A stretch of 64,000 bases of DNA, taken from NCBI RefSeq assembly GCF_009914755.1, contig NC_060943.1; one strand, written 5' to 3'. Source of the stretch: the human T2T-CHM13v2.0 reference genome, Homo sapiens. The notes under the pieces were generated by a model. The model made no database searches. It saw only the letters and a list, made by a program, of their open reading frames with translations, and had not been told where the DNA came from. Within the stretch, counting starts at the first letter, position 1; every line of letters starts with the position of its first letter. The position numbers and the translations under genes are program-made. Below, piece by piece: positions 599 through 62,467 of this stretch.

Positions 599-1025
<427 letters not shown>

Positions 1026-1261
1026 AGACTCCCATTTCTTAAAAAAAAAAAATCTGGATGTGGTGGCTTGTGCCTGTAGTCCTAGCTACTTGGGAGGCTG
1101 AGGTGGGAGGATCGCTTGGGCCTAGTTTGAGGCTACAGTGAGCTAGGATGGTGCCACTGCACTCCAGCCTAGGTGACAGAATGAGACCCTGTCTCAACAA
1201 AACGAAACAAAACAAAACACACACACGCAAAAAATCTAAAGTAAAGTTAAAACCAAATGAC

Positions 1262-1393
1262 CTGCCAAAGCTCCAGGCCAATGGCACCAATGTTCTCAAA
1301 TTCTGAGAGGTCATACTGCGTCAAATAGTCGGTATTCTTCATCTTACGGTGGAGCCAGACGTCTTTATGAATACCTTCTGGTTTCAGGCCATC
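1262..1393 (-). CDS. CALR3: CALR3 exon 7
   Basis: 132 nt, [10 protein letters not shown]...[10 protein letters not shown]; matches ORF 1247..1432. Confidence 0.95.
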
Positions 1394-1489
1394 CTGTATC
1401 AAAAAAACCATATGGAGTGGTCTCAATGACATGGGCAGCGGAGGGGCAGCCCTGGGGCATCCCTGGCATCATACAAAGAGGCCACACAC

Positions 1490-1597
1490 CTGGTACGGGG
1501 GCTTCTGGAGCATCGGCGCTGGCCAGTCCCCATCCAGGTCACCGTTCCAGTCGCTCTGCTTGCTGGTGCTGGCGTCCAGAAAATGCTTCTCCCAGTC
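1490..1597 (-). CDS. CALR3: CALR3 exon 6
   Basis: 108 nt, DWEKHFLDASTSKQSDWNGDLDGDWPAPMLQKPPYQ; donor CAG|gtgtgt. Confidence 0.94.
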
Positions 1598-1684
1598 CTT
1601 CAAAGACATGTAAGGAAAAAGTAAAATCAGTCAGATGCTCATATATTTGTTGTTGTTGCTTCTGTTTTTGTTTCTTGAGACTAG

Positions 1685-1969
<285 letters not shown>

Positions 1970-2201
1970 TGAGAAAGGAAATTATTAGATGCCAAGTGGC
2001 AGGCACAGGCTGGTGACCCCTGTCCCAGTGTCCCTCTCCCTTCTTCAGTTTGGTGGTCAGGAGGCCAAGTGCTTGGTGCTTCCAATCCCACTGAGGACTT
2101 CAGGGCAACACCACACTGCCTAGATTTTTCTCCCTAACCTGCCATATGACTTTAGCCCTTTCCTGCATGCTATGGAGAGGAGCAGCGGTGTGGAAACCTC
2201 A

Positions 2202-2528
<327 letters not shown>

Positions 2529-2741
2529 TCAAAAAATAAATAAATAAGTAAATAAATAAATGTTTTACGATACCTTCAGATGTGTAGAGATGTGGCTGGT
2601 CTGCAGTGTGTGCTCTGGGGAGGGCATTTGGTTCTATAATATTGCCATCGTGGCTACCAGCCATGCAGCAATTGTCCAGTAACTGGGTACTTACAAACTA
2701 CATTTGTGCACTTTTTAGAGTTGCCCAGGAAAAATTCACAC

Positions 2742-3690
<949 letters not shown>

Positions 3691-3974
3691 TGAAATGTGA
3701 CTGTACTATTGTAACCCTCATAGGGCAAATGATGACATGTCATAGCTCACAGTAAAAAATGAGAGTGCCCTCCTGATGGGGTAAAAACTTCAGGAAACCA
3801 GTTAAAGGAGAGAAGTATCTCCAATGGGCCCCCTAAACTGGAAACTGGAAACAGGAGGTATGTCTACAAAGACCCATCCCTGGCTCAGTTAAGTATTTTA
3901 TTATCAAAACTATTTTTTCTAAACTTAGTCTGGCAGGAGTTAACACTCATTTATTTGAATACAAGAGCAGTTAC

Positions 3975-4069
3975 CTTACACCTGATCAGTTTCTTGTTTT
4001 CGTGATACTTATTCTTGAAATGTAAAATAACATGAACTTTCTTGATATCAAATCCACAAATATCGGGTC
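3975..4069 (-). CDS. CALR3: CALR3 exon 4
   Basis: ttttgtag|GACCC ... TGTAAG|gtaact; 95 nt, GPDICGFDIKKVHVILHFKNKYHENKKLIRCK. Confidence 0.95.
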
Positions 4070-4361
4070 CTACAAAAAAGATTAGCTGCTCTCAATTTCT
4101 TTCCATAATGCATCACCGTAGAATAACCAACCCACAACCATTCTTTTTTTTTTTTTGAGACGGAGTCTTGCTGTCACCCAGGCTGGAGTGCAGTGATCTT
4201 GGCTCACGGAAACTTCTGCCTCTTGGGTTCAAGCAATTCTCCTGCCTCAGCCTCCTGAGTAGCTGGGACTACAGGCGCATGCCACGATGCCCAGCTAATT
4301 TTTGTATTTTTAGTAGAGATGGGGTTTCACCATGCTGGCCAGGCTGGTCTCAAACTCCTGA

Positions 4362-4598
<237 letters not shown>

Positions 4599-4890
4599 TA
4601 GCTGTGATTACAGGCATGTACCACCAGGCCCAGCTAATTTTTGTGTTTTTAGTAGATACAGGGTTTTGCCATGTTGGCTAGGCTGGTCTCAAACTCCTGA
4701 CCTCAAGTGATTTGCCTGCCTTGGCCTCCCAAAGTGCTGAGATTATAGGTGTGAGCCACTGCATCTGGTCACATGTGTGAATATCTTATTATTGTTCTTA
4801 AAGGACAATGTCCTGGCTTTCCACTCACTTTTGAGTGTGTTCTGAAGCTTATTTAAATATTCAAAGTGGCCTGCTAATCCCAGCACTTTA

Positions 4891-5130
<240 letters not shown>

Positions 5131-5215
5131 TTAAAAAAAAAAAAAAAGTGTGGGCTGGGCATGGTGGCTCACGGCTGTAATCCCAGAACTTTGGGGGGCT
5201 GAGGCGGGTGAATCA

Positions 5216-5546
<331 letters not shown>

Positions 5547-5982
5547 TCATGCAAATGTCAAGACTGACAATAACTGTGCTTCCCTTGTCCTCCTCCTTAA
5601 CCCCTCACCCTCAGCAAGCTCCCCTCACACTAATGGCTGGCGCTGACTCATTGCAACAAAGTGTCCCAATAGTAACAGAGTGGGTTTGAGTAAAATGGAA
5701 CTGTTGAATTAAAAACTGAAATACTAAGAAAAATTTATTTTAATCTTTTTTTGACCCCAAATTATGCTGCTTGGCAATTCAGATGTAGTAGACACATGCT
5801 ATATAGGGGTCTTTATTTATTTATTTATTTATTTCGGACAGGGTCTTATTCTGTCATCCAGGCTGGAGTGCAGTTGTGTGATCATAGCTTACTGCATCCT
5901 CAAACTCCTCGGCTCGGGGGATTCCCCTGCTTCAGCCTCCTGAGTAGCTAGAACCACAGGGGTGCGCCACCTCACTGGGTTA

Positions 5983-6367
<385 letters not shown>

Positions 6368-6468
6368 TCAAGTGATCCTCCCTTGATGTTTCAGATATCT
6401 GGGTGTTTTTTAGTTCTATTTTTATTTTTATTTGGTATTTTGTATCATTTATTTATTTATTTATTTGA

Positions 6469-6830
<362 letters not shown>

Positions 6831-7064
6831 TAGCCAAGATGGTCTCAATCTCCTGACCTCGTGATCCGCCCACCTCGGCCTCCCAAAGTGCTGGGATTAC
6901 AGGTGTGAGCCACCGTGCCCGGCTCTAATTTTGTATTTTTAATAGAAACAGGGTTTCTCCATGTTGGTCAAGCTGGTCTCAAACTCCCGACCTAAGGTGA
7001 TGCGCCCGCCTCTGGCTCCCAGAGTGCTGGGATAACAGGCGTGAGCCACCGCACAGAGCCCTAA

Positions 7065-7340
<276 letters not shown>

Positions 7341-7655
7341 TGAGTACCTGGGACTACAGGCATGTGCCACTATGCCCGGCTAATTTTTTTTGTATTTTTA
7401 GTAGAGATAGGGTTTTACCATGTTAGCCAGGCTGGTCTTGAACTCCTGAACTCCAGTGATCTGCCCACCTTGGCCTCCCAAAATGCTGAGATTACAGGTG
7501 TGAGCCGCGACACCCGGCCTGAGGTACATTTATTATTAAAGTTTTAAGTTACACTATACTTAGGTCTATTTCCTGTGGCCCAGTGTGGTCCCTTCCCAGT
7601 TCTAGCACAAATTTTAATCAAGTACCCCTGTTGTCAGGAGACATTTAATATTTTC

Positions 7656-7990
7656 TAGAGGTTTGCAGGCTTTTTCTATAAAGGCCAGATGGTAAAATAT
7701 TTTTGGCTTTGTAAGCCTAATGATCTCTGTCATGACAACTTAACTCTGCCACTGGTACTGGCGAGCAGCCACAGACAACATATAAATGAACAGAGTGAGG
7801 CTGCATTCCAGTAAGACTTCATTTATGCACACTGAAATCTAAATTTCATATAATTTTCATGTATCACAAAATATCATCTTGTATTGATTTTTTCCAACCA
7901 GTTAAAAACGTAAAAAACATTTTTAGTTCACAGGTTATATAAACACAGGCGGTGGGCCAATTTGGCCCACGGCCAAGGTTTACTGAGTAC
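7656..7990 (+). mobile_element. MER58B-like hAT-Charlie DNA transposon fossil
   Basis: TTTTTCTATAAAGGCCAGATGGTAAAATATTT...GCAGCCACAGACAA...GGCGGTGGGCCAATTTGGCCC, recognised from memory of the consensus. Confidence 0.7.
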
Positions 7991-8001
7991 TGAAGGATTC
8001 A

Positions 8002-8451
<450 letters not shown>

Positions 8452-8676
8452 CTACTAAAATACAAAAAAATTAGCCAGGTATGGTGGCACATGCCTGTAA
8501 TCCCAGCTACTCAAGAGGCTGAGATAGGAGAATCACTTGAACCCAGGAGGCGGAGATTGCAGTGAGGCGAGATCAAGCCATTGCCATTGCACTCCAGCCT
8601 GGTTCACAAGAGTGAAAACTCGGGCTCGAAACAAAAACAAAAACAAAAACAAAAACAAACAAACAAAAAAACTACA

Positions 8677-8913
8677 CAGGTTGAGCATCCCAAATCAAAA
8701 AATCGCAAATCTGAAGTGTTCCAAAACCCAAAACTTTTAGAATCAACATGATGCTCAAAGGAAATGCTCATCAGAGCATTGTGGATTTCAGATTTTTCAG
8801 ATTAGCGTTGCTCAACCAGTAAGGATAATGCAAATAATCCAAAATCCAAAAAAAATTTCCAAAATCCAAAACACTCTGGTCCCAAACATTTCAGATAAGG
8901 TATCCTTACCCTG
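8677..8913 (+). mobile_element. MER46/Tigger4a-like TcMar DNA transposon
   Basis: CAGGTTGAGCATCCC start, AAATCC-rich body, GATAAGGTATCCTTACCCTG end; 5' end duplicated (ACACAGGTTGAG at 8004) as the TSD of nested Alus. Confidence 0.75.
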
Positions 8914-9006
8914 CATGAGGGCAACATTAATGGTGAATAAATAACTTCTTCAGGAACACAACAGACTGGTACAGTTGCCTTTTTATATTAATTAGGCTTA
9001 ATAGTG

Positions 9007-9068
9007 CTTGGATCCGATACACTCAATACTACTACAAACCTTGGATCCGATATACTCAATACTACTAC
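9007..9068. repeat. 33-bp-period tandem duplication
   Basis: CTTGGATCCGATA(C/T)ACTCAATACTACTAC at 9007 and 9040. Confidence 0.9.
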
Positions 9069-9165
9069 CTTCACTACATTAGCAAAGTCTTAGTCTAAAG
9101 ATCCTGTGAAGTGGGAGGGTTTTCAAAGTCACTAGAAGTGGCTGTGTTGCACCACGTAAACTCAC

Positions 9166-9369
9166 CAAACATAATATAGTATTGCGATTTTCCATTCAGG
9201 TTCTTCTGGTCAATGTCTGCAGGAAAGACCTTAATGTAGCCCCCTCCACAGTCCATCTTCTGCTCATGTTTTACTGTGTACTGAATAACCAGAGTTTTCC
9301 CTTTATTGCTGAACGGTTTGAAGCGTGCAGAGATGGCATAGAATCGGCCATTCTGAGTGGTTTGCAGAC
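9166..9369 (-). CDS. CALR3: CALR3 exon 3
   Basis: 204 nt, GLQTTQNGRFYAISA...KHEQKMDCGGGYIKVF...YYIMF; donor G|gtgagt; matches ORF 9095..9379. Confidence 0.96.
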
Positions 9370-9562
9370 CTTTGAACAAAATATACTCATGAAGGATCAG
9401 GAATGACGCTGCGCTAAGTAACGCAGGAAGTTAAATCGATGTCCTTCCCTTACTCCCAAACATAAATGTCCTAACCATTTACAGTGATCTACAGTGCCAA
9501 CAGAGCATTATACAATAATGCATAATGGGTAGACCACTAGCAGGCACTCTGCTTCTATATAA

Positions 9563-9679
<117 letters not shown>

Positions 9680-9921
9680 TGAGTAGTTGGGATTACAACT
9701 ACAATTAGCCACCACGCCAGGCTAATTTTTGTATTTCTAGTAGAGATAGGGTTTCTCCATGTTGGTCAGGCTGGTCTTGAACTCCTGACCTCAGGTGACT
9801 GCCTGTCTCAGCCTCCCAAAGTGCTGGAATTACAGGTGTGAGCCAGCGTGCCTGGCCCATACAACTTTTATTTCACACACCTGGAAGTTTTTGTTCTTAA
9901 TATACCACTGTTATTAATTAA

Positions 9922-10125
<204 letters not shown>

Positions 10126-10313
10126 TAGCCAGGATGTTCTCGATCCCCTGACCTCATGATCCGCCTGCCTCGGCCTCCCAAAGTGCTGGGATTACAGGCG
10201 TGAGCCACCGTGCCCGACTGGTCCCTTTCCTAAACATTCTACTCTGCCTTTTCAGCATAAAAGGCAGCCATAGACAATATATAAATGAATGGACTGCCAG
10301 GCATGCTGGCTCA

Positions 10314-10942
<629 letters not shown>

Positions 10943-11854
10943 TGAAAGCAAATACAATTTAAAGCCTTGAGAGGCCAGGCATGGTGGCTCACATCTGTAA
11001 TCTCAACACTTTGGGAGGCTGAGCCGGGTGGATCACTTGAAGTCAGAAGTTCGAGACCAGCCTGGCCAACGTGGGGAAACTCCATTTCTACTAGAAATAC
11101 AAAATTAGCCGAGCGTAGTGGCGCGTGCCTGTGGTCCCAGCTACTCGGGAAGCTCAGGCAGCTGAACTGTTTGAACCTGGGAGATGGAGGAGCCATTGCA
11201 CCCCAGCCTGGGTGGCAGGGCGAAACTCCGTTTAAAAAAATAAATAAGCCAGACGCAGTGGCTCACGCCTGTAATTCCAACACTTTGGGAGGCCGAGGCG
11301 GGCGGATCACCTGAGGTTGGGAGTTGGAGACCAGCCTGACCAACATGGAGAAACCCTGTCTCTACTAAAAATACAAAATTAGGCCGGGCGCGGTGGCTCA
11401 TGCCTGTAATCCCAGCACTTTGGGAGGCCGAGGCGGGAGGATCACGAGGTCAGGAGATCGAGATCATCCTGGCTAACACGTGAAACCCTGTCTCTACTAA
11501 AAAAAAAAAAATACAAAAAATTAGCCGGGCGTGGTGGCAGGCGCCTGTAGTTCCGGCTACTCGGCAGAAGAATGGCGTGAACCCAGGAGGCAGAGCTTGC
11601 AGTGAGCCGAGATCGCGCCACTGCACTCCATCCTGGGCTACAGAGCGAGACTCCGTCTCAAAAAAAAAAAAAAAAAAAATTAGCCAGGTGTGGTGGCACA
11701 TGCCTGTAATCTTAGCTACTTGGGAGGCTGGAAGCAGGAGAATCATTTGAACCTGGGAGGCGGAGGTTGTGGTGAGCAGAGATCACGCCATTGCACTCCA
11801 GCCTGGGTAACAAGGGTGAAACTCTCTCTCAAATAAATACATAAAATAAATAAA

Positions 11855-12626
<772 letters not shown>

Positions 12627-12756
12627 TGATTCTCCTGCCTCAGCCTCTGAAGTAGGTGAGATCATAGATGTGTGCCACCATGCCCAGCTAATTTTTGTAT
12701 TTTTAATAGAGACGGAGTTTCGCCATGTTGGCCGGGCTGGTCTCAACCTCAAGTGA

Positions 12757-13085
<329 letters not shown>

Positions 13086-13156
13086 TGACTTCAAGTAATC
13101 CGCCTGCCTTGGCCTCCCAACATGCTGGGATTACAGGCGTGAGCCACCGTGCCTGA

Positions 13157-13393
<237 letters not shown>

Positions 13394-14090
13394 TGATCCG
13401 CTCGCCTAAGGCCTCCCAAAGTGCTGGGATTACAGGCATGAGCCACCGCGCCTGGCCTATTTTTCTTTTTAATACGAAAATTAAAATGAGAAAAAGTACC
13501 CACTAACCTTTTCCTTCTGAGGGGCATGGCCCTTGATCCTCAAATGCACTTGACTAGTGTCTATTAAGAGGGGCAATTTTGGTAATGCCTACTAATAACA
13601 CATTCATATAAATATAATCCAAAGAAGGTTAAATACCATTGCATATTTGACAGTGCTTCAAGTATGATTTTATTATACCAAATAAGCTGAATATGTCTCC
13701 TTGGACTTCAGGGGACCTAATACCAATAAAAGTAATAATAATGATAATAGGCCAAGCACCATGGCTCACGCCTATAATCCCAGCACTTTAGGAGGCCGAG
13801 GCAGGTGGATTACTTAAGGCCAGGAGTTTGAGTCCAGCCTGGGCAATGTGGTGAAACTCTGTCTCTAAAAAAATTAGCAGGGCATGGTGGCGCACGCTTG
13901 TAATCGCAGCTCCTCAGAAGCCTGAAGCAAGAGAATCACTTGAACCCGGGAGACGGAGGTTTGAGTGAGCCAAGATCGTGCCACTGCACTCTAGCCTAGG
14001 CGACAGAGCGAGACTCCTACTACCAAAAAAAAAAAAAAAGGAATCTTCGGCAATAAAGAAAGGAGAGAGGAGGCTGGATGTTGTGGCTCA

Positions 14091-14475
<385 letters not shown>

Positions 14476-14536
14476 CTAGAGAGGTTGCTATGGAAATGTA
14501 ACATTAGGCTCAATTTGGTCCTGATTCTACACTAAC

Positions 14537-14638
14537 CTTTATCTTTCTCTTTATGACCATAAAACTTGCCCGACGAAAGTCTAAAATGCCCAAATCGGGA
14601 GTCATTGGTGGACTGCAACCATCGGTTTCTCCAATGCT
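14537..14638 (-). CDS. CALR3: CALR3 exon 2
   Basis: ccccacag|AGCATTGG ... AAAG|gttagt; 102 nt, EHWRNRWLQSTNDSRFGHFRLSSGKFYGHKEKDK. Confidence 0.95.
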
Positions 14639-14824
14639 CTGTGGGGAAGGGGAAATAACACCGGTTAGAGGTGATAATGGTTAATTTGGGCTAAGGGAAG
14701 GGTGAAGGGGACCCTCCAGGATTCGAGGGTTCGCTGCCGTCGACCCCGTGGCGACTCTGGCCAGCCTTAGGGGGCGGAGATGGGGGAGCTTACACCTCCG
14801 CCACCACGGGCGTGGCCCCTTCAC

Positions 14825-14915
14825 CTCCGTCTAGAAATTCCTCTTGGAAATAGACGGTAGCCAGCGCCACTCGCAGCATGCATATGGCCCAGAGCTGGAC
14901 CAAAGCCCGGGCCAT
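14825..14915 (-). CDS. CALR3: CALR3 exon 1 coding part (signal peptide)
   Basis: ATG at 14915; 91 nt MARALVQLWAICMLRVALATVYFQEEFLDG; donor G|GTGAAG. Confidence 0.95.
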
Positions 14916-15140
14916 GGGGGTGTGCACTGCGCTTCCGGTCGCCGCCACCCCTTAGCTCCCAGCTCTCTCTGCGGCTCTTCAGGCGCGTCCCGAAACTACA
15001 ACTCCCGTCACAACTCGCGATTATGACCTGAGGGTCCCATTGGTCGCTGCGGCGCGGGGCACGTTGGGCCCGCCCCGGAACTACCGCTCCCATGACACCC
15101 CGCGATTGTGATTCGGGGCGCCATTGGTCTGCGGGGCGCG

Positions 15141-36306: not shown

Positions 36307-36697
36307 CCCCAGACTCCTCTGAGCCAAATCCCAGCTCAGTGACAGCTCTCCCAGCAGCATGCCCAGCTCTATGACACCACAGGCCAGTGGAAATAGAATT
36401 TCAGTGGAGCTGTCCCCACTCACAGCAGGACAGGGGCCACCAGCCTCTGCAGAGCAGCTCCACCCAGGCAGGTCCTGGCATCCCAGTGAGCCAGAGGGAG
36501 ACAGGGTGGATGGGAGAAGCCCTGCTCGAGGGTAAGGACATGGGACCAGGTCAGCACGCTGGGGACGCCATGTGAGCCCCTGGACACGGCCTCTGACCCC
36601 AGGCTGCACAGCTCAAACCAGGACATGTGTCTCCTCACTCAGCCCGTGCACACTTCTGACTTACACATGTGCGGGAGAAAGGTCTTTAAAAAAAGGC

Positions 36698-36703
36698 TTT
36701 ATT
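36698..36703 (-). terminator. CHERP: CHERP poly(A) signal AATAAA; 3'UTR about 36683-37947
   Basis: TTTATT on plus at the end of an AU-rich, repeat-free 3'UTR. Confidence 0.85.
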
Positions 36704-37947
36704 TGAAGGCAAAACAATGAAATCCACAAGAAATTACTAACAGCACGTGTTTACGTTTTATCCTGAATCATACATTTTAACAATTCACAGCTACAGGAAA
36801 TCTAGAACAAAATCAAATATTCATCACGTTGGGTTGAAAAGTTGGAAGATTTTGCATCTTATTGAAAAGAATTTTTCAAAAATGTTTCTGTACAAATGAA
36901 TGGAATTGCACCAGGCTGCCCATGGACACCAGGTGTGGCCGATTCCCAACGGTCACCCACCAGCTTCTGGCAGGAGCAGCTCCCCTCCTGGCCTCCCCTC
37001 CCTTCGGGGGTGTGAAATGAAATGATGGAGTGGAAGGCGCTGGCTGGGGTCGGGCTCCATGCTCTGGATGGGACTGGGCCGTCGCACACGCCAGCCGGTG
37101 CAGGGTTCTTCCAAGTGCAAAACTCAAGCAGGGGACGCGACGGGCACAGACTCCGAGGCAGCGCTCAACCTGAAGTGTCTTAGGCTGGTTTCCTGTTAGA
37201 ATCTTGTTTCCCAGATAACAGCAAATGGCTACATTCCAGAAAAAAAATATCAACTTATACAACTAAAATAACTGAACTAAGGGCCAGTACGCCTTCGAAG
37301 AATTAGGTTTCAGAATCTCACTGGGCCTCCTCTCAGGTCAGTATTCTTCTTTCTAGACCTAAACCAAGGAGAGTAAAAATGAAAACCCTGCTTCACTTCG
37401 CAAGTCAAGTCAAAGTTTTGTGTTTCTGTTTTTCAATCCGCGGGCAGTCATGGCACTGGGCTTCGGCTTTGTCCCTACACAGCCGAGGGGAAGCCAGGTC
37501 AGGGCCGGTGGGTGCGGGGAGCTGGAGGAAGGAGCTGGGGTGCCGGCTCTGGCTCAGGCCAACCCTTCCTGCACATGCTCCTCCTGGAGCCTAGGAGGAG
37601 GCTTCAATCTGACTTAGGGCAGATGCACATCCATCCCTTCGTGGCTGAAGAATTTACTCGGGCGGAGGGTCTTGTGTTTTTTGCTTCGCTATAAAGGAAA
37701 ACGAGCCTGGGGCCCTGGTGGCTGCAGCGCCTCCTGGTGTGGTTTGTGGGTGGCACCCGTGCCCTCCACGCCATGGAGCACGGCGTTCCCACTGGGCATG
37801 CGCTGGTCTTCCTTCTCTTCCTGTGGCTCTCCACAAGTGGAGACGGTGTAAGAACTGAGCTGTCACTGCAATCTTCCTCTGCCAGTCAGCCAGGAAGGTC
37901 CCACAGCCGGCACCGCTGGCCACCGGCGCGGCTCCCGGCATGGGCGC

Positions 37948-38141
37948 CTACTTACACTCGTCCCTGGCCTTCATGCGGGCGATGAAGGAGTAGCTCTTGT
38001 TCCTGCGGTAGTTCTCATAGGGGTCATCCAGAGCCACGCCCACGCCTTTATACTGGTCCCACTTATCCCGGACGTCCCCGCCCTTGATGGGGTCCTGGAT
38101 CCCTTGCTCCTTCGCACCGAGGCCGCCTGAGCCGCTCCAGC
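37948..38141 (-). CDS. CHERP: CHERP exon 17 coding part (G-patch end, stop TAG)
   Basis: GWSGSGGLGAKEQGIQDPI...ARDECK*. Confidence 0.96.
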
Positions 38142-38409
38142 CTGGAAACAGAGACGCAGTCACAACCACAACAAGGCGGAGGCAGATGGGGGTGCACGTG
38201 GGGGGCTGAATGTCCAGACAGGCAGTGTAGACATGGGAAATGGGTAGAGAGAACCCGCAGGCCGGCCCTGTCTAGAGGGTCTGGGTGGAGTCAGAACCGG
38301 CCTGACTCCATCCATCCCCACATGCACTGAGGAAGAGAAAGCGCTGGTGACTCCCGGGCCCAGCACGCGTGAGGACCCATCCCGCGCCCTCCCCATTCCC
38401 TCGCCTTAC

Positions 38410-38504
38410 CCATCTTCACCAGCATCTGATGGCCTTTGTTCTCTTCTCCGAGCCTTGAGTCAGGGATGGGAGGCGCCGAATTAGAACCCAGACCAGCAGA
38501 GGAA
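38410..38504 (-). CDS. CHERP: CHERP exon 16 (G-patch start)
   Basis: 95 nt SSAGLGSNS...EENKGHQMLVKM. Confidence 0.95.
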
Positions 38505-38937
38505 CTAAAATCGAGACAGGTTATTCTTTTTAAGAAGTAACTGAGACATTTATTGGAATGACAGTGATGAGGACCTCACAGCCGCAGCTTGCGTGCATGC
38601 TCACTGTCACCAGGTGACACCGTATGCAGATTTTGCGTCTCTACCCGTTTATCCTGTCTCAGCTAGATAAGGGGGCTCCAGACGCTGGCCCCCACCCCAC
38701 GCTCAGCATTGAGAGCAGGACACCTCCAACCCAGATGGTGGTTAGAAAGCAGACCCCAGTTACTGCCTCAGGCTTCGCCAAGTGGCTACTGTGGTGAAGG
38801 GTGAGGGGTGCCACTGTCCCCGGGCTAATGCTGGCGGCCTCCTAACACAGTCTCCTAACCACCAATGTTTCCACATTCACAGCAAAGCACCGCAGCTTCC
38901 CAGAGTTACCAGCGCAGCACTTAAGACAGGATCTTAC

Positions 38938-39054
38938 GGCGGGGTGGGGCTCCTGGACCGTGACCGGCGTCTTCTTCCTGGGGAGTACGACTTGGACCGG
39001 GACCGCGACTGGGACCGGGAGCGGCTTCTGGAGGAGCGCGACCTGCTCCGACTT
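38938..39054 (-). CDS. CHERP: CHERP exon 15 (RS domain)
   Basis: 117 nt RSRSRSRSSRSRS...RSPTP; CC|gtaaga. Confidence 0.94.
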
Positions 39055-39152
39055 CTGCAGGGAAGGGTGCCCAAGGGTCAGCAGCAGCCAGGCGTCGTGG
39101 GGAGGCCACAGGAAGAGGCCTCAGGCACTGCCCTGAGGCAGCCTCTGCCTAC

Positions 39153-39296
39153 CTAGATCTGGAGCGGGAGTAGGAACGGGAGCAGGAGCGCGACCTTGAC
39201 CTTGAGTACGAGCCTGAAGACTTGGAGGATCTTGAGTTGGAGCGGGAGGAAGAACGCCCTCGACTCTTGGATCTGCTCCGAGACCTCGAGGGTCCG
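39153..39296 (-). CDS. CHERP: CHERP exon 14 (RS domain)
   Basis: 144 nt SGPSRSRSRSKSRGRSSSRS... Confidence 0.94.
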   Translation of the reverse strand, partial: RTLEVSEQIQESRAFFLPLQLKILQVFRLVLKVKVALLLPFLLPLQI

Positions 39297-39614
39297 CTGT
39301 GGGGAGAGGCCTGATGATCAGGTGCCCCAGTGGATGGGCTGCACCCAGCCCACCCTGGCCCTCAGGTTCCTAGACCACCCCAGATGCAGGGGCTCTGGCT
39401 GTGGATGTGGCGCCATAGCCACAGCAACGGTACCAAGTTCCTAAATAGTGTGGCCGAGCCTGCTGCTGTGTGAATTCAGGCCTTGTGGAAAACACCGCCC
39501 CATAGGCACAGGCTGTGTGAGGGTGGACGTGATGAGTGTATCTGGGGTCTGCTCCCACCCATCACAAGCTGTGGACCCTGGCCCCCCGGCCACTGCAGAC
39601 ATCTGCGCTTTTAC

Positions 39615-39701
39615 CTGTTCCTCTTCTCCTGGCCTTTCCTCCGCCGGGCCCGCATTTTTGCTCGGAAGAACTCATAGAGGCCGTTCTGCTCCCAGCCTTC
39701 A
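39615..39701 (-). CDS. CHERP: CHERP exon 13
   Basis: 87 nt SEGWEQNGLYEFFRAKMRARRRKGQEKRN. Confidence 0.94.
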
Positions 39702-40309
39702 CTGTAAGACACGGCATTCCGTGTGTGACCACGTGACACCCACCCACAAGGAAGTCGTGAAAAAGTCATCAGGAGTTAATCCACAGAACCTTGGAGAGTA
39801 CATGGCCCTGTGGCTGTGGGCTCCGAGCATGGGCGCAGTAGAGCTTGGTTCAGTGTTCCCACAGGGCTGTCCTCCTGCAGCCCAGTGGCTCCTCTGGTGC
39901 CCACGCCCTTGCCACCCTGCTGTTCCGCTGAGGTGGTGGGGACCCATGGTCTGTGGAACTGGGAAACAGGAACACTGACTCATGGGTGGACAGGCCTGCA
40001 GCCCAGCACAGGAAGGAGGGGTGACCACTGGGAAGGGTGGGCTGAGGGCCCTGTGGCAGCCGGCTGCTTGAGACGTGCCGCCGTGCCACACCTTCCCTAA
40101 CTTCTTCTGATGTGTCTCCATTAAAACGCCCTTCATTGAGGGCCACGTGTGTGCTGTGCCTGTGACACACACTTGTCACTCAGGCGGGGGGAGGGCAGTT
40201 TCTCCTGAGGGACAGCCACATTTTCTAGCCTGGACAGAAGGTGTGGTTGCAGGGAGCCGGGAGAGGGGACAGAGGCCTCCCGCCCACCCCACTGACCTGG
40301 GCCCCTTAC

Positions 40310-54425: not shown

Positions 54426-55595
54426 CTGGAGGGAGAGGAGGAGGGGTGCCCCATGAGAATGCAGATGGGGGTCTAGGTGTCCCCTTGGCCACCTCTCAGC
54501 CACAGGGGCCTCCCCCTCCCCAGGGACTCACCATCCACGAGGGCCTGTTCATAGCCTCATGCCCACGCAAACCAGCTCCTCCTAGTCTCGGGTCCTGCCC
54601 TCCCTCTCACAGGATCCCAGCCTCAGCATTCCATCTTCGGGCCGTCCCCTCCTCGGAGAACCTAGGAAGTCCCCTGGCCGCTCTCTCGCCAGCACCATCC
54701 AGTCCTTGCGCAGTGTCCTTCCGGTGCAAGCTAAGCTTGCCTGCCCACCTCCTCACCCACCTAGGCCCCACCTGATGCAGAACCCAGGCCTCAGTACCTC
54801 TCATCCTCCGACCTCCTCGGCCACTCCCTGACCTCTGCCACTTAAGCTACCCATTGACTGTTAAGATGTCACAGCCACCGGGCCTCTGCACATCTGGCCA
54901 GAAAGGCACGAAGCCGCACCCCCGAGCGCACACTGCGGCCTCCCCCACACCTGCCTTGTCCTTCTACTGACTCTCCTTGCTTCTCCAGCCCTTGGGGACA
55001 GAGACCCCTCTGCATTCAGGGGTGCATCCAGTTTGAGGCAGCAGTGAGACACCCATTCTGCCGGCAGAAGCCTGGGTCAGGGTGGGCGCAGGTCCCAACT
55101 CTGGCCAGATGGGGCAGGTGGTGAGGTCTCTGAGGAAGGGACCCGGCTCATAAGGAGGCCCTGGACAAGATGACCTGCCTCTCTCTCCGTCTTGGGGCCG
55201 CCTGGTCTAAATGTGACCAGGTACCCCTGGAGCCCTCCAGAGCCCCACTCCAAGGGGACCAGGACAAAGCCAAAGATAAGGGAGGTGGGGTGTCAGGTGG
55301 AAGGTGTCGCCCCTCACTGGGCGCTCAAGTCAAGTCTCGGGGCTGACTGTGCCCTCCAGTTTGTGCACCCAAAGCCACCCTACAGGATGACCCCCAACTT
55401 CTGCACTGAATCCCACCCCTCCCACTGTCTGAGGGACACTGCTTATTGATATTTCTTCTATCTCTTATTTCTCCAACTCCTCCCTCTTTACCCGTCCCTC
55501 CCCAGCAGCATCTAAACACATTGGGCTGGGCATGATGGCTCACGCCTATAATCCCAGCACTTTGGGAGGACAAGGCGGGTGATCACCTGAGGTCA

Positions 55596-55931
<336 letters not shown>

Positions 55932-56920
55932 TCAGCCTGGTGCCTGCTTGCCACTCCCCGCACCCCCCTCCTTCCCCCAGGCAGCTGAGGACACCCTCAC
56001 TCAACTCAGCCCCCCGGGCCTGTCGCAGGTGCTTGCCTCCCTTGGCCTCCATGTGTTCGCCCCCTCAGTCCCTTTCTCCCCCTTTACCAACCCCTCTCCC
56101 GTTGGACCCTCACATGCTGGGGTGCGCGGCCTGTGTTCTGAGCCCTGTCCTCCGCTCTACGCAACCGCCGGGCAACATGAGCTACTCATTCCTGTGGCTG
56201 CGATTGTGCATGGTGTGATTCCTAAATCCATCATCTCCATTCTGGATTCCTGAGCTTTGGCCCTAACCACCAACTGCACGGCCCACTGTGTTTCCAAGGG
56301 GCCTGTGTTTCCTCTCACCCCCTACACCTATGTCCCCTCCTGTGCTCCCCGCACCATGGTTGGCACCACCATCTGCCCAGAAACCCAGGCCAGAAGTAGC
56401 ATGTGCCTCCCAGTGACGAGCCACATAGTGTCAAGGCGGCCTCCGAGACATCACTCCAATCAGTCTATGTCCCCGCTGTCACCACCATGGATCTGCTGTC
56501 ACCTGCGTCACCCCAGAACCGGTCTTCCTGCATCAGGTCCCATCCCTCTACCTCTTTTTGACATGGCAGTCATGGTATTGCCACTTATGGAGTGGTCCCT
56601 GGGCTACCCAGCGGTGACAGACGGTTATGGAACCAGAAAGGGAGCATTTCAAAACCTTTCTAGCAGCGTGATGGTTCACGGTCCACATTGTTACTGTGCT
56701 TTGCAGAAGTTTTGGTCCACACACAACAGGTTAGAAACTTAAAACACAACACCAGAAATGGTCCTTCACCACAGAGTTCGTGAAGCTCCATTCTACAACA
56801 GTTGAGGCCCAGGCTTTAAGGCGTGGGGTGCAGAACTGGCTGTACTGTGGCTAACCCAGCTTCACAACACAGACCTAAACCTTCCACGAGTCTCTCCCAC
56901 GCTTCCAGGATACACTCCTC

Positions 56921-56992
56921 ACTCCTCTCCAAGCCAGGTCCCCGACTCCTCCCCAAGCCAGGCCTCCAACTCCTCCCCAAGCCAGGCTCCCA
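56921..56992. repeat. 24-bp minisatellite, 3 copies
   Basis: ACTCCTC(T/C)CCAAGCCAGG.. at 56921, 56945, 56969. Confidence 0.9.
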
Positions 56993-57254
56993 ATTCTGCA
57001 CCCCCACCTCTGGCCACTCCAAGAACCCCTCCTACTCTGGGCTTCAGCCACCCTAAGCTCTGGGTTCCCCATTCCCTCCAAGGGCTCCTTCCTCTGCCCG
57101 GAACACTTTTCTCCCCTTGTTTTCACCTGGCCAACTCCAACACACCCTTTACATCTAGCCAAGATATCATCACCCACAGAAAGCACTTCTTGGCTGGGTA
57201 CGATGGCTCACGCCTGTAATCCCAGCACTTTGGGAAGCCAAGGTGGGCGGATCA

Positions 57255-57600
<346 letters not shown>

Positions 57601-57901
57601 TTAGCTCAGTCACCCAAGCCAAAGCACCGTCTGAGGTGTCTTCCTCCCCTGCTCATTACACCATCAGGTCGTCAATATGCAACTGGCGCCCAAGTTCATG
57701 GATTCTACCCCTTCACCCCACCTGCCCCCCATGCTCCCTCCCTCAGGCTCAACCTACTGACTTAATTCAGACCCCACCATCTCTCACCTAAACAACTGCC
57801 CTGTTTGCTCCCCTGCAGGCCTCACTGCTCCCCAGGCTGGTCCCTGTAGCTTGTCCTACACCACCGGCCACACAACCCAAGCCACCCTCTCCCTTGTTTA
57901 A

Positions 57902-58236
<335 letters not shown>

Positions 58237-58477
58237 TAGCAACGGTTTTAAACTTGGTGTGCTGGGGCTAAGGAAGGATCGCTCTAGAAACACATAAGCA
58301 CATACAATATTTTGCTTACGATTTCAGGCAGCTGATCTCTCTCCACCCCACCCCCGCATCTCAAACCTAAATAGGCATCAGAAAAACCCCTGGATTGAGT
58401 GAAAAAACCCAAACTTTTCCCCTGGCAGTTAACACTCCAGGTCAAACTCTTCCCTCATACAAGCACATTCTTTTATT

Positions 58478-59115
<638 letters not shown>

Positions 59116-59325
59116 TAAAGTGCTGGGATTACAGGCACAAGCCACTGGGCCTGGCCTCCTTTCAAGCTGCTTTTTTTTTTTAGATGGAGTCTCATTCTGT
59201 CACCCAGGCTGGAGCGCAATGGTGTGGTCTCGGCTCAATGCAACCTCCAGCTCCCAGGTTCAAGCGATTCTTCTGCCTCAGCCTCTCCAGTAGCTGGGAC
59301 TACAGGTGTGTGCCACCACACCTGA

Positions 59326-59767
<442 letters not shown>

Positions 59768-59795
59768 TGAGCCACTGCAACAGGCCTCCTTTCAA

Positions 59796-59968
59796 GCTGT
59801 TTAATCGAACACCAACTGTGTGTTATGTATTAAGGGACAATGACCTTGTACCTTAATACAAGACGAGCGTGTAGTCCCCTGAACTACACGCTCGCCGAAG
59901 CCAAACAGACCTTGTTTGGGTCATTGTACCTTAATACATAACACACAATTGGCGTTCGATCAAACAGC
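59796..59968. repeat. 50-bp inverted repeat enclosing three hairpins
   Basis: 59796-59845 pairs with 59919-59968 (46/50); internal stems 59846-59861, 59864-59894, 59902-59918. Confidence 0.95.
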
Positions 59969-60659
59969 GGACAACCACCTCTCAATGTCCATCTACCTGG
60001 CAAACTCCTAGTTATTCATTTAAACAATCTAGAGACGGGGTTGGGTACTGAACGTGACAGATGTGATACCTGCCCTGAGCAGCCGCACCACCTGGTGACT
60101 ATCCATTATTCAAAGGCCAGCTCTGCTTCCTAACTTTAAACTTCTTTAGAGCAGGACTGGAATCCTGTTGCCTAAATGAACGAACATTGATAAACACTTG
60201 CCAATAACTAAAACTCAGAGGGATAATTCTTTTTGATTTCTGCTGCAGGCATCTGAAATGCACAAAACCTTGCTGGACCCACAGGGAGACGGCAAAGGGG
60301 GCTGGACAGTGCCTGTCCCATGGACTCCCATCCGGCCTCTATCACTTCCTCCCTAGAAAACACTAAAACAATCACGCTACTCCTGCTAATCTCCGTCATC
60401 AGTCTGCAAAACAACAGCAAAATCCCTGATCCAGAGCCCAGGGGGGAGGATCGAAAACCTCGTTGTTCTCCATTACAGTGGCACCCAGCAGCCGCTCTGT
60501 GCAGGGCCGTGGGAACAGCGGAACAGGGATCGTGTGGACCGAGCTGCTCCACTTCAAAGAATAAACGACCCGAAAGAAAGAGGTTTGTGGCAGAGCCCGG
60601 ACTGGAATCCGAGAAAGGAAGCGCTCGATGGGACGGCCTGAGTGCCGGAGGGGACTCAC

Positions 60660-60833
60660 GCTGCTGCTGCTCCAGCGCCAGCTTGCACTTGTAGTAACTG
60701 TAGAATTCGCCTCCGAAAAGAAACGAGAATTTGGGGTTGTCCTTCTGCTTCTCCATAGTCATCTTCTCAAACTCGGGCCCATTGCGAGCCACGAACTGGG
60801 CGAGCTTGTCGATGACATTTCGAAGCTCCTGGT
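60660..60833 (-). CDS. CHERP: CHERP exon 2 (SURP domain)
   Basis: 174 nt; IDKLAQFVARNGPEFE...NPKFSFLF...YYK SURP signature. Confidence 0.96.
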
Positions 60834-61143
60834 CTGGAGGACGGAGAAAAGGCCACGCGGGGCGTCAGCGAGGACCGCCCAAAGCCGGGGGACTCGGCGC
60901 CCCAGCCCCCGTCCGCCTTGCCGGGGACCCCAAGGGGGTGGGCCCCGAAGAGGCCGCCCTTGTACGGGTCCCGATAGGGGCCACACGCTCGCCGGGAATG
61001 CGGGGACCCACGGGAGAGGCCGCAGGCGAAGCCGCGAGGCCGAGCCCCGCCCCCTCCCAGACCCGGGGACTCCGGGAGGCGGGGCCGGCCAATAGGAGGT
61101 TCCGGGGAGAGAGAAACGGTCTCTCGGCCGGTTTGGGTCTCAC

Positions 61144-61168
61144 CATCGGGGGGCAGCGGCATCTCCAT
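61144..61168 (-). CDS. CHERP: CHERP exon 1 coding part
   Basis: Strong Kozak GGAGCCATGG; MEMPLPPD; G|gtgaga. Confidence 0.95.
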
Positions 61169-62467
61169 GGCTCCGGCCGCGGGGAACGTCCTCCGGCGCC
61201 ACACGATCGACCACCAGCGCCGTCTGCGGAAGCCGGCCGGAAGTGGCGCGAGGGAGCCGTTTACGGCGGGCTTCTAGGGCCGCTTCCGCCCGCCACTTAC
61301 GGCCGTCGCTGGGAAACTCCGGAAGTGAGAGCGGGAGGCAGGCGGGAAGAAGCCGCGCGATGCCTGGCGCGCGGGAGGGGCTAGCGACGCGCACGCGCAG
61401 AAGTTTCCTGACACTTTCGCAGAGTGGGTCCCCGTCGCGCGGCGCCGCGGAAAGGCTGGAACGGCGCGGGTGGGTGTTAGTCGAGACCGGGGGGCGCGGG
61501 GCGTGCCCCTTGGTCGGCGTCGCAGCCCGATGGGCTGGCTGGTTGCTACCTCCGGGCGACCAGGGGCCTGGGGACTTCGTGCCTGGGCCAGGGTCTCTTT
61601 CCTTTCGCGGGCACAGTGAGGAGACTGCGAGGTGAGGTGCGTCCGGGTGGATCCCGGGCTGCGGCGACTGTCACATTCTCCCCGGCCAGACCGGAGGTGG
61701 AGCAGAACTGGGGGCGACGAGCTTGACTGGGATTGCAGCTGGACGTATTTAGGTTCAAAACATCCTCCTCCTGGCTTTCTTCCGCTCCACTCTTTGGTCA
61801 GGAAGACTGGGGCGGGGTACCCCCCAACCCATGCCCTCAAATTGCTGGCCTAGAGGGCACAGCGCCTTTCTAAAAGCTGCAGTTGGGTTGCCTCTAAAAT
61901 AATGAAGCTAACCCTTGCTAATTGTGGGGAAAAGATAGCCAGAAGCAGCAAATTTCTGCTGTGGACGTCCGATATAAACTGATCCTCTTGAGATGGTTAA
62001 TGCTTAGTTGGCTATACCTGCCCCCCGCCCCCGCCGCTTTTTTTTCCTTTATCCGTTTTTTTTTTTCTTTTTTCTTGAGACAAGGTCTTGCTCTGTGGCC
62101 CACGCTGGAGTGCAGTGTCATGATCATAGCTCACTAGCCCTGAACTCCTGTGCTCAAGTAATCCTCCCGCCTCGGCCTCCCAAAGTGCTAGGATTATAGG
62201 CATGAGCTACTTTACCCAGCCTGTTTTTTTCTGTGCAAATAAATGCACATGTATTTTAGATTAGTTTCATTTTTATTGTTAACAGCATTTTTCCACCAGA
62301 TGCTTATGGATTGACAACTCTACATCAAGTGTTGCTGTAGGCTAGGAATCAACAAAACTTTTTGTATAAAAGGGACAGAAAGCAAATATTTTAGACTCTG
62401 CAGGTCAGGAGGCAAGATCAAGGATTTTTTTTTTTCTAAATGTCCTCTAGTTCATATTTTCTCATGA

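What the first reader, a model, noticed from the sequence alone, without database searches (positions are those of the whole stretch)
59796..59968. Cloverleaf-like fold-back element in CHERP intron 2 with strand-biased G-U pairing
Seen: a 50-bp stem (59796-59845 / 59919-59968, 46 of 50 Watson-Crick) closes a loop that is itself almost entirely three hairpins. These are TTGTA/TACAA (59846-59861), a perfect 12-bp CGAGCGTGTAGT/ACTACACGCTCG (59864-59894) and CAAACA/TGTTTG (59902-59918), forming a four-way junction. Three of the four long-stem mismatches (59803/59961, 59811/59953, 59816/59948) are A-C on plus and so become G-U pairs in the CHERP pre-mRNA. The same holds for positions that extend the inner stems (59863/59895, 59876/59882, 59851/59856). 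The element has 8 CpGs, matches no repeat family I recognise, and lies about 700 nt past the exon 2 donor. TTGTACCTTAATACA also occurs twice directly (59846, 59924). Inference: either an unannotated structured intronic RNA (dsRNA-protein, ADAR or Drosha substrate, or splicing/pausing element) or a DNA cruciform built by serial template switching.
Basis: partly seen in the sequence, partly recalled or inferred. Interest (0 to 1): 0.88.

Follow-up and report, generated by a model that had tools for sequence, protein, structure and literature searches.

The report
Single-copy nested hairpin in CHERP intron
A 173-base stretch in an intron of the human CHERP gene folds back on itself into a long stem with three small hairpins, and it looks like an accidental product of DNA copying errors, not a purpose-built RNA.

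Summary
Arms 59796-59845 and 59919-59968 pair at 46 of 50 positions and enclose three hairpins. Both strands fold far better than shuffles: CHERP-sense strand -114.4 kcal/mol, z -17.7; plus strand -97.0, z -14.6.

The element is single-copy in T2T-CHM13 by BLAST, three mismatch-tolerant arm and hairpin patterns, and a covariance model. It is not repeat-masked. It matches no Rfam family and no tRNA, and it has no target-site duplication at its ends.

New evidence bears on its origin:
- A 12-nt direct repeat brackets the loop plus 3' arm: 59835-59846 and 59969-59980, 10 of 12 identical, p about 0.006.
- Hairpin 3 holds a chimeric junction of the 3'-arm end and the arm/loop joint.
- One 15-mer is present three times.

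These are footprints of repeated fold-back or template-switch copying, with the 5' arm as the original.

The G-U strand bias is real but weak: 3 of 3 gives p 0.125-0.21, and 6 of 7 gives p 0.06-0.15.

I read it as a neutral, lineage-specific inverted duplication that passively forms intronic dsRNA. No other vertebrate genome could be searched, so conservation is untested.

The parts
59796..59845 (.). 5' arm of the long inverted repeat; inferred to be the original copy
   Evidence: I1 (50 nt, 92% complementary). Its outer bases GCTGTTT form part of the target-site copy of the adjacent Alu units, with a TTT/AA-type nick site at 59800-59804. The outer end of this arm therefore existed when the Alu inserted.
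59919..59968 (.). 3' arm of the long inverted repeat; inferred to be the derived inverted copy
   Evidence: I1. It is followed directly by the second copy of the 12-nt direct repeat.
59846..59861 (.). Hairpin 1 (5-bp stem). It consists largely of a 15-nt inverted copy of 59826-59840 and is identical to 59924-59938.
   Evidence: D4 (15 of 15) and I4 (15 nt, 93%, 5-nt spacer); folds.
59862..59896 (.). Hairpin 2: perfect 12-bp stem 59864-59875 / 59883-59894 with four intact CpGs in the stem. On the CHERP-sense strand it extends to 16 bp through two G-U pairs.
   Evidence: I6. No source elsewhere in the genome.
59901..59919 (.). Hairpin 3. It contains the 14-nt chimera 59902-59915, which joins the 3'-arm end motif (59961-59967) to the arm/loop joint motif (59842-59849).
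   Evidence: direct matches of 7 and 8 nt that overlap by one base; folds.
59835..59846 (.). First copy of the 12-nt direct repeat: the inner end of the 5' arm plus one base
   Evidence: D7; (10 of 12 identical to 59969-59980).
59969..59980 (.). Second copy of the 12-nt direct repeat, immediately outside the 3' arm. With the first copy it brackets a 122-bp insert (59847-59968).
   Evidence: 0.57% of 20,000 unmasked window 12-mers reach 10 of 12 anywhere in the element, and 0.095% do so at that position.
59796..59968 (-). The whole element as transcribed within CHERP pre-mRNA. Predicted four-way junction with a 50-bp stem (46 Watson-Crick pairs, 3 G-U, 1 mismatch).
   Evidence: -114.4 kcal/mol, z -17.7, MFE frequency 0.26.
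58859..59782 (-). Context: three head-to-tail Alu units abutting the 5' arm, each followed by the same target-site motif
   Evidence: masked 58849-59783.

Best explanation
The element is a single-locus, nested inverted duplication. It was created in ordinary unique intron sequence by several rounds of fold-back or template-switch copying during DNA replication or break repair.

The 5' arm (59796-59845) is the original sequence. The loop plus 3' arm (about 59847-59968) is a templated insertion whose last 50 nt are the reverse complement of the 5' arm. When copying returned to the original template it landed 12 nt upstream of where it had left, which left the 12-nt direct repeat at 59835-59846 and 59969-59980.

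The interior carries debris of further switches: a second 15-nt inverted copy, a junction that joins the arm end to the arm/loop joint, and a younger perfect 12-bp hairpin.

Shown directly: the anatomy, the single-copy status and the flanking repeat. Inferred: the mechanism and the order of events.

Because it lies in the sense strand of CHERP intron 2, every pre-mRNA carries it as a roughly 50-bp double-stranded RNA on a four-way junction. It is then plausibly a passive ADAR or dsRNA-binding-protein substrate, like the many inverted Alu pairs in the same gene. I think it has no selected function.
For: 1. **Single copy.** BLAST of 205 nt and of the inner 73 nt found only self. Two arm patterns with up to 3 mismatches found only the two arms. 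A pattern for hairpin 2 plus linker with up to 3 mismatches found only self. A degenerate hairpin-2 pattern found one chr8 site with unrelated flanks. The covariance model R1 found only self among 150 scored of 6,868 first-look candidates.
2. **Not masked as a repeat**, and no target-site duplication at the arm ends.
3. **A 12-nt direct repeat brackets loop plus 3' arm**, p about 0.006 anywhere in the element and about 0.001 at that spot. The left-flank 12-mer has no counterpart (best 8 of 12), so the asymmetry points to the 5' arm as the original.
4. **Shared states at 59836.** The 5' arm and the right-flank copy share G. Both inverted 15-mers share the other state. This implies at least two successive copying steps.
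5. **Chimeric junction** at 59902-59915.
6. **Arm divergence** of 4 of 50 (95% interval 2-19%) against perfect 12 of 12 and 15 of 15 inner repeats. This fits events of different ages.
7. **Literature.** In Monttinen et al. 2023 (PMC10710096; I read the Results), template-switch mutations produced 53,666 putative events in genic regions on the primate-to-human lineage. Of these, 31,007 formed new RNA stems, and only 0.9% of miRNA-sized ones are annotated miRNAs. Multi-switch cases and fragments of 28-83 nt are described.
8. **Composition.** Sense-strand G+T of the element equals that of the surrounding intron.
Against: - Loytynoja and Goldman 2017 (PMC5453318; passages read) did not observe event types in which the return point precedes the departure point. 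That is what a flanking duplication needs. A single four-point event therefore does not fit, and a multi-step or break-repair route must be assumed.
- The 41 nt of hairpin 2 plus linker have no identifiable template anywhere in the genome.
- CpG observed/expected is 0.97, against 0.36-0.52 in the flanks. The Poisson tail is 0.011-0.068, which is mildly unexpected for old neutral DNA.
- No outgroup sequence was available, so neither the order of events nor neutrality has been shown.
Confidence: 0.6

Rival explanations
1. It is a selected structured RNA domain of the CHERP pre-mRNA. Such a domain could be a dsRNA-protein platform, an ADAR or Drosha/DGCR8 substrate, or a pausing or splicing element. 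Its stems would be maintained in the sense strand, where decay is tolerated only as G-U wobble.
For: - The sense strand folds 17.4 kcal/mol better than the antisense strand.
- 3 of 3 transition-type stem mismatches and 3 stem-extending positions are G-U in the sense strand.
- CpGs are not depleted: observed/expected 0.97.
- Hairpin 2 is perfect, with four intact stem CpGs.
Against: - The bias is weak: p 0.125-0.21 for 3 of 3, and 0.06-0.15 for 6 of 7 once the plus-favouring G/T at 59908/59912 is counted.
- G+T of the element equals the intron background.
- No Rfam match reached threshold on either strand.
- No structural relatives were found in the genome.
- The supplied RefSeq annotation has no RNA gene here.
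- The direct-repeat footprints explain the structure without any selection.
Confidence: 0.07
2. It is the only surviving copy of a palindromic mobile or foreign DNA element. Candidates are a MITE-like non-autonomous DNA transposon or a hairpin terminus of a parvovirus-like genome that inserted once.
For: - It has 50-nt terminal inverted repeats with a short motif (CAAACAG and its complement) recurring subterminally.
- Its composition differs from the flanks: G+C 44% against 51%, and CpG observed/expected about 1.
- The architecture of a long stem with small internal hairpins recalls parvoviral termini. That comparison is recalled from memory, not tested.
Against: - No second copy was found in 3.1 Gb by five kinds of search.
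- There is no target-site duplication directly outside the arms.
- The 12-nt repeat that does exist brackets loop plus 3' arm, not the whole element.
- The 5' arm's outer bases belong to the host target site of the neighbouring Alu.
- Two exact-word scans of viral contigs were blank. These mean little, because the scans are exact-match only and human-like records are excluded.
- ORFs in the flank show nothing beyond CHERP exon 2 read-through (by eye only).
Confidence: 0.1
3. It is a young, unannotated small-RNA precursor (miRNA or endo-siRNA) born from a template-switch hairpin and expressed with its host intron.
For: - It is a sense-strand intronic hairpin, the setting in which template-switch-born miRNAs are enriched (81 of 99 intragenic cases; PMC10710096).
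- It has a very stable stem.
Against: - The stem is 50 bp and its apical region is three hairpins. Efficient pri-miRNAs favour a stem of about 35 bp and an unstructured loop of 10 nt or more (PMC10710096 introduction).
- Only 0.9% of suitable template-switch hairpins are annotated miRNAs.
- The only miRNA-type Rfam hit is mir-996 at 23.2 bits, against a gathering score of 40.3.
- No MIR gene is present in the supplied RefSeq annotation.
- A word search of papers for arm sequences was blank.
Confidence: 0.05
4. It is an assembly artefact of the reference.
For: Nothing positive.
Against: - The arms differ at 4 of 50 positions, and the structure is nested and asymmetric. Technical fold-back chimeras give perfect palindromes; that point is my inference.
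- The element is embedded in continuous unique intron sequence.
Confidence: 0.02

Closest known systems
Template-switch-mutation (TSM) hairpins of primate genomes (Loytynoja and Goldman 2017; Monttinen et al. 2023)
   Same: It is a single-locus inverted repeat arising in unique sequence, with no target-site duplication and no other copies. It lies in the sense strand of an intron, forms a very stable new RNA stem, and has acquired a few later point mutations. Multi-switch cases are reported in this literature.
   Different: The 50-nt arm with a 73-nt structured spacer is at or beyond the large end of the cases I read (28-83 nt). A 12-nt direct duplication flanks the insert, which needs a return point upstream of the departure point. 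That event type was not observed in the human-chimp survey. At least three nested events are needed.
DUP-TRP/INV-DUP rearrangements made by iterative template switches (Grochowski et al. 2024, PMC11293582; abstract only read)
   Same: The segment order is the same: one segment is present forward and inverted, and an adjoining segment is present forward, inverted and forward again. Both are ascribed to two or more template switches.
   Different: Those events span kilobases to megabases and use long inverted low-copy repeats as the switch substrate. Here the scale is 12-50 nt and no pre-existing inverted repeat is evident.
Miniature inverted-repeat transposable elements (for example human MADE1 or the MER families; recalled)
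   Same: The size is similar (about 80-300 bp) and there are long terminal inverted repeats able to form a hairpin.
   Different: There is no second copy, no target-site duplication at the termini, and no repeat masking.
Inverted Alu pairs in introns (dsRNA and ADAR substrates)
   Same: Both are intronic, sense-transcribed inverted repeats predicted to form long dsRNA. The same window holds 24 such masked pairs among the 25 longest inverted repeats.
   Different: This element is not derived from a repeat family. Its arms are shorter (50 nt) but more complementary (92% against 70-90%), and its spacer is itself folded.

Membership tests
Template-switch / fold-back generated inverted repeat | Inverted copy of immediately adjacent unique sequence, with no other genomic source | tested here: met
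   Arms lie 73 nt apart and are 46 of 50 complementary. Only self matches were found genome-wide.
Template-switch / fold-back generated inverted repeat | Parent-to-child change in a phylogeny that is explained by one reverse-complement copy (four-point model) | not testable with these tools
   No other primate or vertebrate genome can be reached. The flanking 12-nt duplication would need point 4 before point 1, a type not observed by Loytynoja and Goldman.
Template-switch / fold-back generated inverted repeat | Junction footprints (duplications or chimeric joints) at the switch points | tested here: met
   12-nt direct repeat, p about 0.006. Chimera at 59902-59915. Three copies of a 15-mer.
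MITE / non-autonomous DNA transposon | Terminal inverted repeats | tested here: met
   I1.
MITE / non-autonomous DNA transposon | Target-site duplication immediately outside both termini | tested here: not met
   The flanks read ...CCTTTCAA | element | GGACAACC... with no 2-, 4- or 8-bp match. The left-flank 12-mer has no counterpart (8 of 12 at best).
MITE / non-autonomous DNA transposon | Multiple dispersed copies in the genome | tested here: not met
   Searches found only self. Limits: BLAST and the first-look filters can miss copies diverged by more than about 30%, and no Dfam library is available.
Rfam RNA families (miRNA, snoRNA, ribozymes, tRNA-like and others) | Score at or above the family gathering threshold | tested here: not met
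   Within 59796-59968 the only match at E of 10 or less is mir-996, 23.2 bits against 40.3. The gathering scan of the whole window found only two 7SL matches, both elsewhere. ARAGORN found no tRNA.
Canonical pri-miRNA | Stem of about 35 bp with an unstructured apical loop of 10 nt or more, plus discrete small-RNA products | tested here: inconclusive
   The stem is 50 bp and the apex is a three-hairpin junction, so the geometry does not fit. Small-RNA reads are not available.
ADAR / dsRNA-binding-protein substrate | Near-perfect intramolecular duplex of tens of bp in a transcribed RNA, plus observed A-to-I editing or protein binding | tested here: inconclusive
   The duplex is predicted and lies in the CHERP sense strand. 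Editing and CLIP data could not be reached.
Parvovirus-type hairpin terminus | Long stem with two small arms, tandem Rep-binding tetranucleotides in the stem, and adjacent viral coding sequence (features recalled) | tested here: not met
   There are three inner hairpins, not two. I saw no tandem tetranucleotide repeat in the arms. The flanks are Alu and CHERP intron with no foreign ORF. Viral word scans were blank (weak tests).

The most novel reading that the evidence does not exclude
The nested hairpin is a recently born, primate-specific structured RNA module that selection has since captured. Copying errors made it, but only wobble-compatible changes have been tolerated on the CHERP-sense strand and its CpGs have been kept. 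It would act co-transcriptionally, about 700 nt into intron 2, as a long-dsRNA platform (ADAR1, Staufen/ILF3 or Microprocessor) that tunes the output of CHERP, itself a U2-snRNP-associated splicing factor. That would be a caught-in-the-act example of a template-switch product becoming a regulatory RNA other than a miRNA.
Probability: 0.06. Interest if true: 0.6.

Novelty: new member of a known kind. Interest (0 to 1): 0.25.

Why it matters
As it stands, this is a clean, unusually large and multi-layered example of how replication or repair copying errors can create a complex RNA fold (a four-way junction on a 50-bp stem) in one locus, with no transposon involved.

It is a useful test case for two reasons:
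- The flanking 12-nt duplication is not accommodated by the published single-event four-point model.
- It shows that 'strand-biased G-U' and 'cloverleaf' appearances can arise without selection.

If the stems proved to be conserved or bound in vivo, the element would become an example of de novo birth of a structured regulatory RNA inside a splicing-factor gene.

Tried and rejected
**Leads that went nowhere**

- **Known RNA family.** The Rfam E-value scan of 59300-60500 gave only Alu-type hits and a sub-threshold mir-996 match. The gathering scan of the whole window gave two 7SL matches elsewhere. ARAGORN found nothing.
- **Repeat family or MITE.** BLAST searches, mismatch-tolerant patterns and covariance model R1 (only 150 of 6,868 candidates were scored) found no second copy. 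The one extra hit, on chr8, has unrelated flanks and is chance.
- **NUMT or small-RNA retrocopy.** I consider this unlikely, because such sources have many paralogous copies that the same searches would have found. This is an inference.
- **Viral origin.** Two exact-word scans of viral contigs were blank. This is a weak test.
- **Coding remnant in the flank.** ORFs of 35 aa or more in 59790-60660 (9 listed) show only CHERP exon 2 read-through. I did not run them against Pfam.
- **Alu origin of hairpin 2.** A 13-of-15 match to the neighbouring Alu (I5) is within chance by my estimate for a 9-mer core, so I dropped it.
- **Hidden palindrome or diverged rc-arm copy in the loop.** An ungapped comparison made by eye gave about 4 of 22 matches in the middle part, so there is no support.
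- **Transcription-linked mutation bias as the cause of the G-U excess.** Across the 24 inverted Alu pairs in the window, sense G-U to A-C is 140:144. There is no general bias. CHERP pairs alone give 37:25, and CALR3 pairs lean the other way. Some of these pairs overlap and are not independent.
- **Literature.** A search for CHERP + intron + hairpin (29 papers, 10 listed) gave nothing relevant. The top hit matched an author's name. A word search for arm and hairpin sequences hit only an 11-mer in unrelated papers. The search on mutational asymmetry was used as a listing only; none of those papers was read.

Full report
**1. The observation**

The repeat finder reports an inverted repeat with 50-nt arms, 59796-59845 and 59919-59968. 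The arms are 92% complementary and 73 nt apart (I1).

Other features confirmed:
- A perfect 12-bp inner hairpin at 59864-59875 / 59883-59894 (I6).
- A 15-nt direct repeat at 59846 and 59924, 15 of 15 identical (D4).
- 8 CpGs, observed/expected 0.97.
- A fourth stem mismatch, G/A at 59836/59928.

Predicted folds, all as the same four-way junction:

| Strand | Molecule | Energy (kcal/mol) | z-score |
|---|---|---|---|
| CHERP-sense (minus) | RNA | -114.4 | -17.7 |
| plus | RNA | -97.0 | -14.6 |
| minus | DNA | -68.3 | -17.1 |
| plus | DNA | -64.0 | -15.4 |

In all four folds, none of 200 dinucleotide shuffles did as well.

Of the 25 longest inverted repeats with a spacer of 300 nt or less in the window (32 found, 25 listed), 24 lie in masked repeats. 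Those whose sequences were printed are Alu-like. This one is the only unmasked pair and the most complementary.

By the supplied annotation the element lies in CHERP intron 2 (54426-60659), 692 nt past the exon 2 donor, on the sense strand.

**2. What it is not**

- **Not a known RNA family.** An Rfam scan at E of 10 or less over 59300-60500 gave Alu-type matches in the flank. Inside the element it gave only a mir-996 match at 23.2 bits, against a gathering score of 40.3. The gathering scan of the whole window found two 7SL matches elsewhere. ARAGORN found no tRNA.
- **Not repeat-masked.** The annotation's mask ends at 59783. That table lists only masked stretches of 100 bases or more.
- **Single copy in the 3.1-Gb T2T genome.**
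  - BLAST with 205 nt and with the inner 73 nt found only self.
  - Two arm patterns allowing 3 mismatches found only the two arms.
  - A 32-nt pattern for hairpin 2 plus linker allowing 3 mismatches found only self.
  - A degenerate hairpin-2 pattern found one chr8 site whose flanks are unrelated.
  - A covariance model of the sense-strand fold found only self, with 150 of 6,868 first-look candidates scored.
- **No target-site duplication** directly outside the arms.
- **No viral match.** Two exact-word scans of viral contigs were blank. This means little.

These results fail two defining features of a MITE: multiple copies and a target-site duplication.

**3. Footprints of its origin**

(a) The 12 nt immediately after the 3' arm (59969-59980) repeat the 12 nt at the inner end of the 5' arm (59835-59846) at 10 of 12 positions (D7). 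Among 20,000 unmasked 12-mers drawn from the window, 0.57% match the element that well anywhere, and 0.095% do so at that spot. The left flank has no such counterpart (best 8 of 12). So a 122-bp block, the loop plus the 3' arm, is bracketed by a short direct duplication. This marks the 5' arm as the original and the 3' arm as the copy.

(b) At the one transversion mismatch, the 5' arm and the right-flank copy share one state. Both inverted 15-mers (59846-59860 and 59924-59938) share the other. The two inverted pieces are therefore related to each other by a further copying step.

(c) Hairpin 3 contains a 14-nt string (59902-59915). It is the last 7 nt of the 3'-arm motif fused to the 8 nt that span the joint between the 5' arm and the loop. 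It reads as a junction left by a switch from the end of an inverted copy back to the start of the loop.

The inner repeats are perfect (12 of 12 and 15 of 15), while the long arms differ at 4 of 50 positions (95% interval 2-19%). This fits events of different ages.

The outer 7 nt of the 5' arm belong to the target-site copy of the adjacent Alu units, and a TTT/AA nick-type site sits at 59800-59804. That part of the 5' arm is therefore old host sequence.

**4. Mechanism**

I conclude that the element was built by serial fold-back or template-switch copying during replication or repair.

The class is well documented. Monttinen et al. 2023 (PMC10710096; Results read) report:
- 53,666 putative template-switch events in genic regions on the primate-to-human lineage;
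- 31,007 of these creating new RNA stems;
- fragments of 28-83 nt in worked examples;
- multi-switch cases;
- only 0.9% of miRNA-sized hairpins annotated as miRNAs.

One result goes against a simple version of this model. Loytynoja and Goldman 2017 (PMC5453318; passages read) state that event types in which the return point precedes the departure point were not observed between human and chimpanzee. A flanking duplication requires exactly that. The structure therefore needs several events or a break-repair route.

Its segment order is one piece forward and inverted, with the adjoining piece forward, inverted and forward again. This resembles in miniature the DUP-TRP/INV-DUP rearrangements ascribed to iterative template switches (PMC11293582; abstract only).

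The 41 nt of hairpin 2 plus linker have no identifiable template. That remains unexplained.

**5. The functional-RNA reading**

The G-U bias exists, but it rests on few positions.
- Three of three transition-type stem mismatches gives p 0.125 at even odds.
- Six of six, counting three stem-extending positions chosen after the fact, gives 0.016.
- Six of seven gives 0.062 once the plus-favouring G/T at 59908/59912 is included.

As a local neutral control I counted the same oppositions in the 24 inverted Alu pairs of the window. Sense G-U to A-C is 140:144 overall. It is 37:25 in the four pairs inside CHERP. At that ratio the three probabilities become 0.21, 0.045 and 0.15. Some of the pairs overlap, so the control is rough.

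The element's sense-strand G+T (54.3%) equals that of the rest of intron 2 (54.1%).

The CpG excess (8 observed, against 3.0-4.3 expected at flank ratios; tail 0.011-0.068) is mildly unusual. It fits a young age for the inner hairpin as well as it fits constraint.

Nothing here excludes selection, and nothing requires it. The structure will still form in every CHERP pre-mRNA and is a plausible passive ADAR or dsRNA-binding substrate. That is an inference from general knowledge of dsRNA recognition; no editing or binding data could be reached.

A stable cruciform in duplex DNA seems unlikely with a 73-nt spacer. This too is inference.

**6. Limits**

- No other vertebrate genome, no second human assembly, no Dfam library, no reads and no paper supplements were available. 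Age, conservation, covariation, polymorphism and expression of small RNAs are all untested.
- The genome searches use a first-look filter and skip closed regions, so 'single copy' means no copy closer than roughly 70% identity in the searchable part.
- A paper search for CHERP + intron + hairpin and a word search for pieces of the element found nothing on this locus. These two searches are the only basis for saying it is not described.

**7. Verdict**

The element is a new member of a known kind. It is modestly interesting as a large, multi-layer example with a flanking duplication that the published single-event model does not cover.

Noticed in passing
window 58859-59782: Three head-to-tail minus-strand Alu units (about 58859-59155, 59170-59461 and 59475-59782). 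Each is followed by the same CCTCCTTTCAAGC motif. Units B and C share variants that A lacks, which suggests a tandem duplication of an Alu plus its target-site copy and not three independent insertions.
   Followed up: partly
window 58479-58774 (-): A full-length 7SL RNA match, 156.2 bits, model positions 1-299. It corresponds to the annotated pseudogene RN7SL146P and lies about 85 nt from the first Alu of the array.
   Followed up: no
window 59804-59810 and 59954-59960: Both arms carry a GTTCGAT / ATCGAAC motif that resembles a Pol III B-box. The B-box motif is recalled from memory. No tRNA or other Pol III gene was detected there.
   Followed up: partly
window 1-14953 versus 40142-61227: Inverted Alu pairs in CALR3 lean towards A-C on the sense strand (for example 1:8, 1:8 and 2:8). 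Those in CHERP lean towards G-U (37:25 over four pairs). Both genes are on the minus strand, so the difference is not explained by strand alone.
   Followed up: no
window 36683-40141: By the supplied annotation, the 3' exons of C19orf44 (+) and CHERP (-) overlap convergently over about 3.4 kb.
   Followed up: no
window 58000-58400: A local rise in CpG observed/expected (0.86 and 0.62 in two 200-nt bins) occurs inside intron 2, well away from the promoter CpG island at about 60600-61700.
   Followed up: no
L004 1501-1531 (chr8:113041591-113041621): A 12-bp hairpin with one mismatch to the CpG-decayed form of hairpin 2. Its flanks are unrelated, so I judged it a chance match.
   Followed up: yes
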